A stretch of 64,000 nucleotides of DNA from Polyangia bacterium (lineage in GTDB: Bacteria > Myxococcota_A > Polyangia > Palsa-1104 > JAEUJZ01). Location of the stretch: assembly GCA_044228505.1 (NCBI GenBank), contig JBGAUT010000004.1, forward strand, positions 3,177-67,176, written 5' to 3'. The first letter of the stretch is position 1. Each line of letters opens with the position of its first letter. Shown here in pieces: positions 34,220-37,179 of this stretch. The position numbers and the translations under genes are program-made. The notes below the pieces were generated by a model. That model had not been told where the DNA came from and did not search any database. It saw only the letters and a list, made by a program, of their open reading frames with translations.

Positions 34220-34229
34220 GGGGGTTCCC

Positions 34230-34853
34230 TTACCTCGACCGTTTGCCCTTCTTTGCGGTCTTCTTGCTGGTCGAACGGAAGGTATCGTCCACTCGCAGCG
34301 GCAGACCGCTCTGGATGGCCGTTTCGTGATCAAACAAAAAGACCTCGCAATACTCCCGAATACCAAGCAGCTCGCACTGTCCTTTGATCTTGTTGCGCAG
34401 TCGGTCTTGCAAAGGCCCAGCCGATAACAAAAAGCTCTGCAGCTCGTCCGTCTTCACCACAAAAGCCAGCTTGAGCCTTCGTTCTTGCGAAGGGAGCTGT
34501 CTACACACGGATGGCAGATCTGGTTCCAGCAGCGCCTTCTTCGGCAGATGATGCCAGACCGAACCGAGCACCAGCAGACAGTCCTTCGCTTTGTCGACAA
34601 ATTCCCGGTCCAGGTAATCCAGGTAATCGACGAACTGCCGCTTCTGCCGATCAGACGCTCCGCCGGTTTCAGAATAGTCTTTCAGTTCGATCAGCCACAG
34701 GATGTTGCGTTTGCGATCGAACCAACCGAAGTCCAGCTCATGAACGCCAAAATTCTTAAGCGACTTAAAACCGGCGCAGTCTTCCAGTCGAAACCAATCA
34801 CTGGTCGGCGGCTCAAAGCGCAGCCCTGATTCCAAAATCGAAGTGACAGCCAT
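34230..34853 (-). CDS. Hypothetical protein with PD-(D/E)xK-like nuclease signature. Candidate effector of a two-gene defense module.
   Basis: HELDFGWFD followed 10 aa later by ILWLIELKDY (D...hh-E-x-K). Acidic DYLDYLD segment. Basic C-tail. Lower GC than flanks. Starts 6 nt after the ATPase stop. Confidence 0.5.
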   Translation of the reverse strand: MAVTSILESGLRFEPPTSDWFRLEDCAGFKSLKNFGVHELDFGWFDRKRNILWLIELKDYSETGGASDRQKRQFVDYLDYLDREFVDKAKDCLLVLGSVWHHLPKKALLEPDLPSVCRQLPSQERRLKLAFVVKTDELQSFLLSAGPLQDRLRNKIKGQCELLGIREYCEVFLFDHETAIQSGLPLRVDDTFRSTSKKTAKKGKRSR

Positions 34854-34859
34854 GGTCGT

Positions 34860-35888
34860 CTACCGTTCCAGGTCAAGAGACACTTCACGCTGGTATAGCG
34901 CAATGGACTCATCAATGATCGGATTGTCTGGCATCCCATCCAGGAGGTCGAAGAAGTCGGAACGCACGGTCGTGCCGTCTCGGGTGAGCGAACAAAACGC
35001 GACCGAGGCTTTGCGCTGTTTGGCCAAGATATGCAATTGCTTGATTGCAAAATAGCTATGTGTTGCCAGATAGATCTGAACCCCAGCGCGGCTCAAGTCC
35101 ATCAGCATCGTCATCAATTTAACAATATAATCGGGATGTAAGTTGGTTTCCGGCTCATCCAAAAATAGGATCGAGTCTTTGCTGAGTGTCCGATTGCGTA
35201 TCAGCGTAGTCAGGATACCTAGCTTTTTGATACCTTCCGCAGTCTGCGGCATGGTGAAGGTCTGGCCACTTCTCTGAAAGCGAAACTGACCATCCGACTT
35301 GCTCTTGGCAATTTCGCCACCAAAGAGTAGCTCCAGCGACTTCAGAACTCGCTTTAGATTGGCTTCGATGTTGCCTTTGGTGGTTGGCAGTCGCAGCGCA
35401 CAGATCAAATCATAGTAGGTATCATCGAACCCAAAGATCTCCAGCGTCTCGCGGGTGGCTTCGATCGCTTCAAACGCGGTAAGCAGTTCCTTAGGTGGAA
35501 TAAAAATAGCGCTAAGTGCTTCTTGTGGCGCGGCGTCTTCAGTGGCAGTCGTGACTTTTTGATTCGCGGTGCTACCGTAGCTAAATAGATAGTTGTCTCC
35601 GTGTAGCGTACAGTCCACTTGGGTACGCTTTTCACCCCGGTGAACCAGCTCACCGATCGATTCGGTCTGAAACGTCCAGATCAGCTTGTTCGCAAGCACT
35701 TCCCGCCACGCCACCTTGGGCCTTCTCTTCGAGAACTCTTCGACGCTCTTGGCTAGGCAATAGAGCAGCTTCAGTAGATGACTCTTGCCGGTGTCGTTCC
35801 GACCCACGATGACGTTGATCTGCCCGTGGTGCTTCCAGTGGAAGCTCTCGAATAATGCAAAGTTCTTGATGACGAGGTTCGAGAACAT
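34860..35888 (-). CDS. Compact ABC/SMC-type ATPase (AAA_21/AAA_15-like). Candidate sensor/motor of a defense module.
   Basis: SMC/RecF-like N-terminal strand LVIKNFALFESF, Walker A GRNDTGKSHLL, Walker B/D-loop ILFLDEPETNLHP and H-loop LATHS. AT-rich codon usage atypical for this genome. Confidence 0.75.
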   Translation of the reverse strand: MFSNLVIKNFALFESFHWKHHGQINVIVGRNDTGKSHLLKLLYCLAKSVEEFSKRRPKVAWREVLANKLIWTFQTESIGELVHRGEKRTQVDCTLHGDNYLFSYGSTANQKVTTATEDAAPQEALSAIFIPPKELLTAFEAIEATRETLEIFGFDDTYYDLICALRLPTTKGNIEANLKRVLKSLELLFGGEIAKSKSDGQFRFQRSGQTFTMPQTAEGIKKLGILTTLIRNRTLSKDSILFLDEPETNLHPDYIVKLMTMLMDLSRAGVQIYLATHSYFAIKQLHILAKQRKASVAFCSLTRDGTTVRSDFFDLLDGMPDNPIIDESIALYQREVSLDLER

Positions 35889-35989
35889 TGCGCGGCAGCA
35901 TAGTCACGAGGCCCTCAGATTGCGAGCCTAGAAGCGTCGACCCTGGACCGTACGGTCCGCGTCACCCAGCAAGCCCCAACTCATCCCCA

Positions 35990-36199
35990 CCGCAAACCTC
36001 TTTGCGACCGGGATGATCCAGGTCTTCCCTGCCGCAAACCTCTTTGCGCCTGGGATGATCCAGGTCTTCCCTGCCGCAAGCTCCTTTGCGATCGGGATGA
36101 TCTAGGTCTTCCCTGCCGCAAACCTCTTTGCGCCTGGGATGATCCAGGTCTTTGCTGTCGCAAACTGCTTGGCGATCGGGATGGTCGGCGTCTTTTTTT
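35990..36199. repeat. Tandem direct repeats, 42-bp unit x about 4.5 copies, each containing the hairpin cgcaaaCCTCtttgcg. Intergenic, upstream of the ATPase gene.
   Basis: Units at 35990-36031, 36032-36073, 36074-36115, 36116-36157 and a degenerate 36158-36199. Unit ccgcaaacctctttgcgNNNgggatgatccaggtcttccctg. No unique spacers. Confidence 0.85.
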
Positions 36200-36244
36200 C
36201 TTATTTGACTTGTCGCTTGTGGATCGGCTGCTACCCCTACTGAC

Positions 36245-37087
36245 ATGACCAAAAAACCTACTAGCAAGTCTGCATCCCCCAAGACCCCCCACCCGACCAC
36301 ACCGGCGGACCCGCCGCCCTCGCTCAAGAACAGCTTCGACGCGTTTTTGGCCGAAGCGAACCTGCTGCCCAAAGAAAAGGTGGTGCCGCTCAAAGTCGAC
36401 GTGAACCTGGTATTTGCCAACGTCCAGCAGGGAATCCTGTCGGTGCAGCCGCAGCTGACCCGCTTGCGCAGCGAGCTGCCGATGCTACATGTCGACGGGC
36501 TGATGAAGCTGCCCAGGCTGGCTGAGGCGCTGCTCTATGCCCATGGCGAGGCGATCCGCCACAGCCAGCCGGTGAAGCGCGCCGAGATGGAGGCCAAGCT
36601 CGTCGAGCTTCAGTCCCTGCGCGAAAGCATGCTGCTGCAAGCCGAGGTGTTTGCCTTGGTGGGCCTTGTCCCCGAAGCCCGCGTCGCCCAGATTCGGGCG
36701 GGGAAGGGCCTGTTCGACGCTGCCCAGGATGGGGTGGCGCTGGCGGATTTGTATGGGGCGTATCGGGGGCAGATTGCGGGGAAGCATCCGTTTTCGGACG
36801 CGCAGATTGCGCGGGTGGCAGAGCTTGGGCATGCCCTGATGAAGGTGATTACGCCGGAGGGGGCGCGGGCTTCGGTCAGCTCTGCGGCGGTGAAGGCGAT
36901 GGACGAGCGCGACCGCATCTACTCGCTGCTCCTGCTGCGTCACGGGGAGCTGCGGCGGGCGGGCTATTACTTGTTCGGCGATGAGATCGACGAAAAAGTC
37001 CCGACGCTCGGGGCCCGTGCCGGCAAGCGCCGCGAGCCCGAAGCGCCCCTGCCTGCTCCCGCCGCCCCCGAACACCCCGCACCGTAA
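36245..37087 (+). CDS. Hypothetical protein with Pro/Thr/Lys-rich N-terminus
   Basis: 280-aa ORF with normal codon bias. No recognisable domain. 92 nt upstream of MoxR. Confidence 0.45.
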   Translation: MTKKPTSKSASPKTPHPTTPADPPPSLKNSFDAFLAEANLLPKEKVVPLKVDVNLVFANVQQGILSVQPQLTRLRSELPMLHVDGLMKLPRLAEALLYAHGEAIRHSQPVKRAEMEAKLVELQSLRESMLLQAEVFALVGLVPEARVAQIRAGKGLFDAAQDGVALADLYGAYRGQIAGKHPFSDAQIARVAELGHALMKVITPEGARASVSSAAVKAMDERDRIYSLLLLRHGELRRAGYYLFGDEIDEKVPTLGARAGKRREPEAPLPAPAAPEHPAP

Positions 37088-37179
37088 CGGCCACGACTGG
37101 TACGTGAGCACTGGCCCGACCGAGTCAACGACGCAGATTGGCGTAGGGACGGATTGGGGTACTGTGGCACAATGCGCCT

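What the first reader, a model, noticed from the sequence alone, without database searches (positions are those of the whole stretch)
35990..36199. 4.5 copies of a 42-bp hairpin-containing tandem repeat directly upstream of the candidate defense operon
Seen in sequence. Perfectly phased 42-bp units (35990-36031, 36032-36073, 36074-36115, 36116-36157, degenerate 36158-36199). Each has an internal 6-bp stem/4-nt loop cgcaaaCCTCtttgcg and a conserved gggatgatccaggtcttccc box. The array ends in a T-run and sits in the divergent region between the ATPase gene (start 35888, minus) and a plus-strand hypothetical (36245). It is not CRISPR, because the whole unit repeats and there are no unique spacers. 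It could be iterated binding sites for a regulator or a phage-encoded trigger, an RNA structural array in the 5' leader, or a recombinational scar of the islet's insertion. A spurious 152-aa ORF (35962-36420, minus) is produced by translating the repeat.
Basis: seen in the sequence. Interest (0 to 1): 0.6.

Follow-up and report, generated by a model that had tools for sequence, protein, structure and literature searches.

The report
Tandem array tied to neighbouring unknown gene
The 42-bp tandem repeat is real, but it belongs to the conserved unknown gene on its right rather than to the defence operon on its left: every relative of that gene examined carries its own 42-44-bp repeat array just upstream of its promoter, a gene-plus-array pairing that matches no family in the databases and papers searched here.

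Summary
In detail: 35990-36199 holds 4.6 in-phase copies of a 42-bp unit. A truncated unit precedes it (35968-35989) and a T-run unit ends it.

The interpretation needs re-centring. The left-hand genes are a low-GC HEC-02 islet (34223-35969). In related Myxococcales contigs this islet is replaced by Septu or other two-gene cassettes. The array and the right-hand 280-aa gene (36245-37087) stay in place.

All 14 lineages of that protein family examined carry an upstream array with a 42-44 bp period. These span 100% to about 28% identity. Five of them, including Sorangium sp. So ce429, have entirely different neighbours. Array sequences are lineage-specific and homogenised within each array, but a 14-mer (GTCTTCCCTGCCGC) survives down to 57% protein identity.

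A conserved sigma-70-like promoter (TTGTCG, 16 nt, TGCTACCCC, 7 nt, ATG) lies between the array and the gene. There is no Shine-Dalgarno sequence and no convincing terminator.

Best reading (about 0.45): a helically phased operator-like DNA array controlling this gene, probably bound by its own product. Main rival (about 0.2): a repeat RNA partner of the protein, like a type III toxin-antitoxin system.

Excluded: coding sequence, CRISPR and a dispersed repeat. An insertion scar is unlikely.

The parts
35968..35989 (+). Truncated, degenerate leftmost unit (…CAAGCCCCAACTCATCCCCA). Homology with the related contig L010 begins here (35970).
35990..36031 (+). Unit 1 (subtype A): P1 dyad CGCAAA-CCTC-TTTGCG plus box GGGATGATCCAGGTCTTCCC
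36032..36073 (+). Unit 2 (subtype B, GCCTGGG linker, which adds a CCTGG/CCAGG dyad)
36074..36115 (+). Unit 3 (subtype A). P1 has a G.T pair. A C>T change creates CTAG, which puts a stop codon in one frame on each strand.
36116..36157 (+). Unit 4 (subtype B). The box is degraded at its 3' end (GTCTTTGCTG).
36158..36199 (+). Unit 5, degenerate. It ends in GTCTTTTTTT (T-run 36193-36199), which sits in register with the box.
36022..36035 (+). Conserved oriented core GTCTTCCCTGCCGC, also at 36064-36077 and 36106-36119. The same 14-mer is exact in arrays of lineages whose protein is 69% (L016) and 57% (L018) identical.
36193..36206 (+). T-rich tract (TTTTTTTCTTATTT) about 39-52 nt upstream of the ATG. 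It is positioned like an UP element and is not a convincing terminator tail.
36210..36215 (+). -35-like hexamer TTGTCG. The first T and the G of TTG are invariant and the middle T is kept in 9 of 10 aligned lineages (L016 has CTGG).
36229..36237 (+). Extended -10-like TGCTACCCC (TA invariant; TG-n in 9 of 10 aligned lineages, L021 has ACC). It lies 16 nt after the -35 and 7 nt before the ATG, which implies a leaderless or near-leaderless mRNA. No Shine-Dalgarno sequence.
   Evidence: inference from spacing
36245..37087 (+). 280-aa gene to which the array is linked. It has an all-alpha core with basic, Pro-rich disordered tails. The family is large and has no Pfam, NCBIfam, PHROG, PADLOC or PDB match.
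34223..35969 (-). Neighbour, not part of the module. This low-GC islet carries HEC-02A (34860-35888) and HEC-02B (34230-34853) with its own 5' region. Other cassettes replace it in relatives.

Best explanation
The array is a cis-element of the plus-strand 280-aa gene, not of the HEC-02 defence operon.

Shown:
- Gene and array form a conserved module. All 14 lineages of this protein family examined have a tandem or degenerate-periodic array of 42-44 bp units (about 2.5 to 10 copies) directly upstream.
- The array's sequence is lineage-specific and homogenised within each array.
- An oriented core (GTCWTCCC, and the exact 14-mer GTCTTCCCTGCCGC) is retained down to 57% protein identity.
- In the window's clade the array ends at a fixed distance from a conserved promoter-like motif that abuts the ATG.

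Inferred:
- The units act at the DNA level. They would be helically phased (42 bp is about 4 turns) operator-like sites spanning roughly -45 to -260 from a leaderless sigma-70-type promoter.
- A sequence-specific protein would bind them cooperatively on one face of the helix and set the gene's transcription.
- That protein is most economically the gene's own product. The array travels with the gene into unrelated contexts and diverges with it, as in the autoregulatory ParR/parC and iteron/Rep logic.
- Slippage or unequal crossing-over changes copy number and homogenises the units, which could tune expression.
For: Linkage to the right-hand gene:
- L008 and L010 have homologous arrays next to the same gene but different left flanks.
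- The islet is swapped for Septu or other cassettes while the array and gene stay. Conserved flanks end at 34222 and resume at 35970.
- Arrays are present in unrelated contexts: L018, L020, L021, L023 (Sorangium sp. So ce429) and L024.
- Periodicity at 42-44 bp is significant in all 14 lineages (z = 4.4 to 24). Controls reach at most 0.40.

Selection on a short oriented core:
- The exact 14-mer is shared by the window, L008, L010, L016/L017 and L018/L019, and occurs nowhere else in the window or the fetched loci.

DNA level rather than RNA level:
- A conserved TTGnCn, 16-17 nt, TGnTAnnCC, 6-7 nt, ATG motif lies between array and gene.
- The box register relative to the ATG is identical (100, 142, 184, 226 nt) in the window, L010, L014, L016 and L017.
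- Highly degenerate arrays (L011, L012, L015) keep only the short motif and the period.
- No stable hairpin precedes the T-run, there is no Rfam match, and the sequence left of the array is not conserved, so no conserved upstream promoter is seen.
- In L014 the box is a perfect 8+2+8 palindrome (GGATGATC-TG-GATCATCC), typical of a dimeric operator.

Concerted evolution:
- Within-array identity is 0.80-0.91 against 0.65 between the window and L016.
Against: - No binding protein is identified. The 280-aa protein has no recognisable DNA-binding domain or fold match.
- Its only hints of nucleic-acid binding are basic disordered tails (pI 10.0 and 8.75) flanking a neutral core (pI 7.0).
- The promoter is inferred from conservation and spacing only. 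The consensus scan found no canonical sigma-70 site.
- The P1 stem shows more G.T than A.C non-Watson-Crick pairs on the plus strand. It also shows a compensatory change between the window and L018. These fit an RNA hairpin as well as a palindromic site.
- Several features are shared with type III toxin-antitoxin loci: repeat sequence co-varying with the protein, a conserved period, a partial terminal unit, a T-run before the gene and a defence-island neighbourhood.
- Only 14 lineages of a family with about 2,800 clusters were inspected.
Confidence: 0.45

Rival explanations
1. RNA partner (type III toxin-antitoxin or AbiF/RCd22-like). The array is transcribed on the plus strand into a repeat RNA. 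Its 42-44-nt units, possibly after processing, bind and neutralise or regulate the adjacent all-alpha protein. The T-run attenuates read-through into the gene.
For: - The architecture is repeats, then a T-run, then the gene, on the same strand, with a partial terminal unit.
- The period is conserved while the sequence co-varies with the protein lineage across 14 lineages.
- The neighbourhood is rich in defence systems: HEC-02, Septu, CBASS and Ntox47.
- There is a G.T excess and one compensatory change in the P1 hairpin on the plus strand.
- Known precedent: ToxI (own knowledge) and RCd22/AbiF (PMC12373285).
Against: - No conserved promoter lies upstream of the array. The left flank is islet-specific, or only about 30 nt separate it from the upstream ORF that I read as ending at a TAA at about 5471 in L018. 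The gene caller instead places a minus-strand gene there, and I did not resolve this.
- A conserved promoter-like motif lies between the array and the ATG, and there is no Shine-Dalgarno sequence. RCd22/abiF has the opposite arrangement.
- No stable terminator hairpin precedes the T-run (z about 0 in 9 lineages).
- No hairpin is common to all arrays: P1 is absent in L014, L016 and L021.
- Some arrays are too degenerate for a defined RNA unit (L011, L012, L015).
- The protein is unrelated to ToxN, CptN, TenpN or Abi_2 by Pfam and PADLOC.
- In its own clade the gene behaves as a vertically inherited, syntenic gene.
Confidence: 0.2
2. Structural or tuning DNA without a dedicated binder. The array is a promoter-upstream minisatellite whose phased T/A tracts curve the DNA or insulate the divergent promoters. 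Its copy number varies by slippage and modulates promoter strength, as in VNTR-type variation.
For: - Copy number differs between close relatives: 4.6, 5.0, 5.2 and 5.9, and 3.9 copies in L016 against about 2 in L017 for an identical protein.
- Short T-tracts recur about every 21 or 42 bp, and A6 tracts recur in L018.
- The period is close to an integral number of helical turns.
Against: - An exact 14-mer is conserved at 57% protein identity, and palindromic boxes are present. These point to sequence-specific recognition rather than shape alone.
- Copy-number differences seen in short-read contigs may be assembly collapse.
- Curvature was not computed.
Confidence: 0.15
3. Recombination substrate or boundary element of the defence-islet slot. 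The array, or its leftmost unit, is the site at which cassettes are exchanged.
For: Nine of nine cassettes in the clade abut the leftmost unit and read away from it. The homology breakpoints fall inside the first box.
Against: - Arrays are also present in the five lineages with entirely different neighbours, where the AKR-islet slot is absent and no cassette exchange could be assessed (L018, L020, L021, L023, L024).
- No recombinase gene lies in or beside the islets.
- Exchange by homologous recombination in the conserved flanks is sufficient to explain the pattern.
Confidence: 0.07
4. Regulatory region of the HEC-02 operon. The repeats would be operators or a leader for the minus-strand ATPase operon.
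For: The array lies 102 bp upstream of the ATPase start, in a divergent intergenic region. All cassettes in this slot are oriented away from the array.
Against: - The array persists unchanged when HEC-02 is replaced by Septu or other genes.
- It also persists where the neighbouring genes are entirely different.
- Each cassette brings its own 70-150-bp 5' region.
Confidence: 0.05
5. Protein-coding 14-residue repeat: a small ORF on either strand, such as the 152-aa minus-strand ORF or the 106-aa ORF that a gene caller placed on the L014 array.
For: Several frames are open, and the translations look protein-like (GKTWIIPVAKRFAA; MIWIIPVAFFFAAR).
Against: - Periods of 43 and 44 bp in L020, L022, L023, L011, L012 and L015.
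- Stop codons in all six frames in L023, and a CTAG stop in unit 3 of the window and of L010.
- A frame shift inside the L014 array.
- No frame is consistently open across lineages.
Confidence: 0.02

Closest known systems
Centromere/operator arrays upstream of their binding-protein genes (R1 parC-ParR type) and plasmid iterons with Rep (own knowledge)
   Same: Several phased direct repeats lie immediately upstream of, and overlap the promoter region of, the gene proposed to encode the binder. The repeat sequence co-varies with the protein, and the module is self-contained and portable.
   Different: Units here are 42-44 bp, against 6-22 bp. The locus is chromosomal, with no plasmid or phage homologues. 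There is no partner NTPase or replication gene. The protein has no RHH, HTH or winged-helix signature. Binding is untested.
Type III toxin-antitoxin loci (ToxIN, CptIN, TenpIN) and AbiF/RCd22
   Same: Tandem repeats of a family-typical length lie directly upstream of the protein gene on the same strand, followed by a T-run. The repeat sequence is lineage-specific. The locus sits among defence genes.
   Different: No conserved promoter lies upstream of the repeats, and a promoter-like motif lies between the repeats and the gene. There is no Shine-Dalgarno sequence and no stable terminator. The protein is all-alpha and unrelated to ToxN or Abi_2 families. Several arrays are strongly degenerate.
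Promoter-associated variable-number tandem repeats (phase or strength variation; own knowledge)
   Same: The repeat is intergenic, sits upstream of a promoter, and differs in copy number between strains.
   Different: The presence and period of the array are conserved across deep divergence of the linked gene, together with a conserved core motif. Classical contingency repeats are 1-10 bp.
REP/BIME/MITE-like dispersed palindromic repeats
   Same: The units contain imperfect palindromes and are intergenic.
   Different: The repeat is not dispersed. The pattern is absent from the rest of the window, from 185,579 species genomes, and from all metagenome records except orthologous loci.
CRISPR arrays and VIPR repeat RNAs
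   Same: A regularly spaced repeat lies next to defence genes.
   Different: There are no unique spacers, because the whole unit repeats. No cas or RAMP gene lies adjacent. VIPR repeats are 5-nt GGY/NN motifs (preprint 10.64898/2026.04.26.720920, abstract).

Membership tests
Type III toxin-antitoxin / AbiF-RCd22-like | Tandem direct repeats immediately upstream of the protein gene, same orientation | tested here: met
   4.6 x 42 bp ending 46 bp before the ATG. The same arrangement holds in 14 lineages.
Type III toxin-antitoxin / AbiF-RCd22-like | Promoter upstream of the repeats and none between the repeats and the gene (co-transcription) | tested here: not met
   The left flank is not conserved. 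A conserved -35/-10-like motif lies between the array and the ATG. This rests on sequence only, with no transcript data. The comparator is described in PMC12373285.
Type III toxin-antitoxin / AbiF-RCd22-like | Rho-independent terminator between the repeats and the toxin gene | tested here: not met
   Only weak 4-6-bp stems were found. Fold energies before the T-run do not differ from shuffles in 9 lineages.
Type III toxin-antitoxin / AbiF-RCd22-like | Toxin belongs to the ToxN/CptN/TenpN/AbiQ or Abi_2 (HEPN) families | tested here: not met
   No Pfam, PADLOC, NCBIfam, PHROG or PDB match. The Rfam abiF motif is not detected.
Type III toxin-antitoxin / AbiF-RCd22-like | Repeat RNA is made, binds the protein and neutralises its toxicity | not testable with these tools
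   Needs RNA-seq, Northern blots, toxicity assays and pull-downs.
Operator/centromere-like repeat array with adjacent binding protein (parC/ParR, iteron/Rep logic) | Multiple direct repeats with helical phasing at or upstream of the promoter of the adjacent gene | tested here: met
   The period is 42-44 bp. The register relative to the ATG is conserved, and a promoter-like motif follows directly.
Operator/centromere-like repeat array with adjacent binding protein (parC/ParR, iteron/Rep logic) | The adjacent gene encodes a DNA-binding protein that recognises the repeats | tested here: inconclusive
   No DNA-binding domain or fold match was found. The only support is basic disordered tails and the co-variation of array and protein.
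Operator/centromere-like repeat array with adjacent binding protein (parC/ParR, iteron/Rep logic) | Partner partition NTPase or replication function, on a plasmid or phage replicon | tested here: not met
   The context is chromosomal and syntenic. tblastn finds nothing in plasmids, phages or viral contigs.
Dispersed REP/MITE-like repeat | Many copies scattered over the genome | tested here: not met
   The source genome itself could not be scanned in full.
CRISPR array | Conserved repeats separated by unique spacers | tested here: not met
   The whole 42-bp unit repeats head to tail.
HEC-02 candidate defence system (neighbouring genes only) | Matches to the PADLOC HEC-02A and HEC-02B models in adjacent genes | tested here: met
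   E = 2.3e-120 for HEC-02A and 2.1e-32 for HEC-02B. GC is 49-55%, against 62-69% for the flanking genes.

The most novel reading that the evidence does not exclude
The 280-aa protein family and its upstream array form a previously undescribed, self-contained protein-nucleic-acid module. The family has about 2,800 clusters at 50% identity and includes cultured Sorangium. The unit length (42-44 nt) would be fixed by the architecture of the complex, while the sequence co-evolves with the protein. The module could be a new all-alpha family of RNA-antitoxin (type III-like) abortive-infection systems. Alternatively it could be a new kind of chromosomal nucleoprotein assembly nucleated on its own promoter. 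Either would explain why the gene sits at defence-islet hotspots.
Probability: 0.25. Interest if true: 0.8.

Novelty: new variant of a known kind. Interest (0 to 1): 0.6.

Why it matters
First, it corrects an annotation trap. A conspicuous repeat beside a defence operon is not part of that operon, and gene callers translate it into false ORFs.

Second, it uncovers a rule. A large uncharacterised protein family is accompanied in all 14 lineages examined by a tandem array. The array's period is conserved and its sequence is not.

Such a protein-plus-repeat pairing is the signature of a specific protein-nucleic-acid partnership. The partnership could be autoregulatory operators, a centromere-like site or an RNA antitoxin. 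It gives a direct experimental handle on the family's function, and a cultured host (Sorangium sp. So ce429) is available.

Third, the locus marks a defence-cassette exchange slot in Myxococcales. This slot could be mined for new systems.

Tried and rejected
- **Coding repeat.** Rejected. Periods of 43 and 44 bp occur, stop codons appear in every frame in L023, and the frame shifts inside the L014 array.
- **Dispersed repeat.** Rejected.
- **Known RNA family.** None at Rfam gathering thresholds. Only a meaningless mir-988 hit at E = 2.6.
- **Intrinsic terminator at the T-run.** Not supported.
- **Promoter region as a diverged terminal unit of the array.** Local alignment is no better than shuffles, with p of 0.3-0.9. 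Only the register coincidence remains.
- **G.T versus A.C asymmetry as a test for an RNA hairpin.** There are too few independent events, about 4-5 against 2.
- **Sigma-54 promoter with enhancer sites.** No GG-N10-GC match was found by eye. This was not formally scanned.
- **Identity of the 280-aa protein.**
  - No hit in Pfam, NCBIfam, PHROGs, PADLOC or the PDB sequence profile.
  - No hit by Foldseek against PDB or BFVD.
  -.
- **Plasmid, phage or viral occurrence of the protein.** None found.
- **VIPR-like repeat RNA.** Different in repeat length and in protein type.
- **Literature search for a 42-bp tandem repeat in myxobacteria.** Nothing found.

Full report
**1. Observation**

Tandem Repeats Finder reports one outstanding array in the 64-kb window. 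It spans 35990-36183 with period 42, 4.6 copies, 83% matches, no indels and score 276. It also shows an 84-bp super-period at 90% matches, because two unit subtypes alternate.

It also confirms the dyad CGCAAA-CCTC-TTTGCG, which is exact in units 1, 2 and 4. The 20-mer GGGATGATCCAGGTCTTCCC occurs with 0, 0, 1 and 2 mismatches against 0.01 expected by chance. The terminal T-run is at 36193-36199.

A truncated unit lies at 35968-35989. The 20-mer is itself an imperfect dyad (GGGATGAT/GTCTTCCC), so the whole array can fold back on itself on either strand (z about -6 on both). That symmetry means the fold energies say nothing about which strand, if any, is used.

**2. The neighbours**

On the left, on the minus strand, lie 34860-35888 and 34230-34853. 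They match the PADLOC models HEC-02A (E = 2.3e-120) and HEC-02B (E = 2.1e-32). Their GC content is 49-55%, against 62-69% for the flanking genes.

On the right, on the plus strand, lies a 280-aa gene with no family match. It is followed by MoxR, DUF58 and BatA/VWA genes. Record titles of the closest genomes place the window in uncultured Myxococcales.

**3. Whose element is it?**

- The repeat pattern is absent from 185,579 species genomes and from viral contigs.
- It matches three metagenome contigs. L009 holds a single copy with no tandem array and looks like a chance match. The other two, L008 and L010, carry homologous 5-copy arrays next to the same right-hand gene but with different left-hand DNA.
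- Contigs encoding the exact HEC-02 ATPase either reproduce the array (L001) or break inside it. L003 and L005 show a variant unit.
- Loci were then fetched through homologues of the 280-aa protein. They show conserved synteny: hydrolase, Ser/Thr kinase, a small ORF and aldo-keto reductase on the left, then a variable slot, then the array and the 280-aa gene.
- The slot holds HEC-02 or HEC-02-like genes in the window, L015 and L016. L008 and L012 match Septu PtuA/PtuB by PADLOC, and L022 carries a similar AAA_15 + 215-aa pair that was not scanned. L010, L011 and L014 hold other small genes.
- Conserved flanks end at 34222, three bases past the reductase stop codon, and resume at 35970.
- All nine cassettes read away from the array.

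**4. The array follows the gene**

More distant homologues sit in unrelated neighbourhoods, yet each has its own upstream array.

| Locus | Protein identity | Array |
|---|---|---|
| L016 | 69% | 42 bp x 3.9 (TRF; about 4.5 by eye) |
| L017 | same protein as L016 | about 2 units |
| L018 | 57% | about 10 units of 42 bp |
| L020 | 56% | 43 bp x 6.2 |
| L021 | 50% | 42 bp x 8.8 |
| L022 | 66% | 43 bp x 3.8 |
| L023, Sorangium sp. So ce429 | distant (41% to family member P0040) | 43 bp x 3.7 |
| L024 | distant (28-29% to P0040), beside a CBASS locus | 42/84-bp periodic units |

L011, L012 and L015 have degenerate arrays that keep a 43-44-bp spacing of a short motif (GGGGATGA…GTCTTG).

Autocorrelation at lags 41-45 exceeds shuffles in all 14 lineages (z = 4.4 to 24). 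The best lag overall is always 42-44 or its double. In 420 control stretches of the window the maximum is 0.40.

Within-array identity (0.80-0.91) exceeds between-lineage identity (0.65 for the window against L016). This indicates homogenisation within arrays.

An oriented core survives all this. The 14-mer GTCTTCCCTGCCGC is exact in arrays of the window, L008, L010, L016/L017 and L018/L019. It occurs nowhere else in the window or the fetched loci.

The protein family is large. It has 2,784 clusters at 50% identity with E <= 1e-3, and none of the ten members scanned has a Pfam domain on the family's core region.

**5. DNA or RNA?**

Aligning the last 120 nt before the ATG in ten lineages shows a conserved motif.
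- It consists of TTGnCn, 16-17 nt, TGnTAnnCC, 6-7 nt, then the ATG.
- The first T and the G of TTG, and the TA, are invariant. The middle T of TTG is kept in 9 of 10 lineages.
- There is no Shine-Dalgarno sequence in the window's clade.
- In the window the elements are TTGTCG (36210-36215), TGCTACCCC (36229-36237) and ATG (36245).

By spacing, this is a sigma-70-type promoter of a leaderless mRNA. That is an inference, and the strict consensus scan finds no site. It would put the T-tract at about -39 to -52 and the units at about -45 to -260.

Box positions relative to the ATG are identical (100, 142, 184, 226 nt) in the window, L010, L014, L016 and L017.

The T-run is not preceded by a stable hairpin. 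Fold energies equal those of shuffles in nine lineages. The scan finds only 6-7-pair stems at background frequency.

The DNA to the left of the array is cassette-specific. No conserved promoter could therefore drive plus-strand transcription of the array.

No hairpin is common to all arrays. P1 is shared by the window clade and L018, with one compensatory change and several G.T pairs. It is missing in L014, L016 and L021. In L014 the box is a perfect GGATGATC-TG-GATCATCC palindrome.

Together these points favour phased DNA sites over a structured RNA. They do not exclude RNA, because no transcript data exist.

**6. Comparison with known systems**

- Type III toxin-antitoxin loci and the AbiF/RCd22 pair share several features: repeats, T-run and gene on one strand, co-variation, and a defence neighbourhood.
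- Their defining arrangement is different, however. They have a promoter before the RNA, a terminator after it, no promoter before the gene, and a ribosome-binding site (PMC12373285).
- That arrangement is not found here, and the protein is unrelated to their toxins.
- ParR/parC-type or iteron-type arrays share the logic of repeats at the promoter of the binder's gene. They differ in unit length, replicon and protein type.
- The 280-aa protein has an all-alpha core (AF2 mean pLDDT 82) with basic disordered tails. It has no fold match in PDB or BFVD by Foldseek.

**7. Rejected readings**

- Coding repeat: periods of 43 and 44 bp, stops in all frames in L023, a CTAG stop in unit 3, and a frame shift in L014.
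- Dispersed element.
- CRISPR: there are no spacers.
- Insertion scar of the islet: very unlikely, because arrays are also present in the five lineages whose neighbours are entirely different (L018, L020, L021, L023, L024).
- Promoter region as a diverged terminal unit: not significant.

**8. Verdict**

The array is real and non-random. It is a conserved companion of the 280-aa gene, not of the HEC-02 operon; I put this at about 0.9.

Its most likely role is a helically phased, operator-like DNA array governing that gene, probably through the gene's own product (about 0.45). A type III-like RNA partner is the main alternative (about 0.2).

Either way, the family-wide pairing of gene and array matched nothing in the libraries and literature searches I could run. 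It is testable in a cultured Sorangium strain.

Noticed in passing
window 34223-35969, and the equivalent slot in L008, L010, L011, L012, L014, L015, L016, L022: The interval between the aldo-keto-reductase stop codon and the array is a cassette-exchange hotspot. It holds HEC-02 or HEC-02-like genes, Septu PtuAB, or other two-gene sets. All nine cassettes are oriented away from the array, and each brings its own 70-150-bp 5' region.
   Followed up: partly
L014 8853-11272; L015 8881-11270 (equivalent to window 37088-37179): A second variable slot lies directly downstream of the 280-aa gene. L014 and L015 carry an AAA_15/AAA_21 ATPase (455 aa) plus a 341-351-aa gene there. The window has only a 92-bp spacer before MoxR. 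In L016 the whole MoxR-DUF58-BatA-FGGY block is inverted relative to the gene.
   Followed up: no
L014 7684-8004; window 35962-36420 (-) and 35981-36292 (-): Gene callers and ORF lists translate the array into false proteins. Examples are a 106-aa 'MIWIIPVAFFFAAR' repeat ORF called in L014, and 152-aa and 103-aa minus-strand ORFs in the window. This is an annotation artefact typical of high-GC repeats.
   Followed up: yes
window 35889-35915 (minus strand): The HEC-02 ATPase start is preceded on its own strand by GACTATGCTGCCGCGCA-ATG. A TATGCT -10-like hexamer lies 9 nt before the ATG, and GCATAG is shared with L015 and L016. This suggests that this operon also has a short or absent leader and its own promoter.
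   Followed up: no
window 35990-36183; L018, L021, L024 arrays: An 84-bp super-period, with two alternating unit subtypes, recurs in several unrelated arrays. Either the duplicating block or the functional unit may be a pair of 42-bp units.
   Followed up: no
L016 5778-5940 versus L017 1708-1790: Two contigs encoding the identical 275-aa protein differ in copy number: 3.9 copies by TRF (about 4.5 by eye) against about 2. This is either true variable-number behaviour or collapse of the repeat in a short-read assembly. Many Logan contigs (L002-L007) end inside the array.
   Followed up: no
L024 566-3465; L021 2880-4998: Distant family members also sit beside conflict systems. L024 has a CBASS-like SAVED and SMODS pair with an HTH regulator. 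L021 has an Ntox47 toxin with a DUF6756 partner.
   Followed up: no
P0020 (429 aa): One database protein fuses residues 1-205 of the 280-aa family to a MoxR AAA_3 domain. It is probably a frameshift or assembly artefact, and it was not examined.
   Followed up: no
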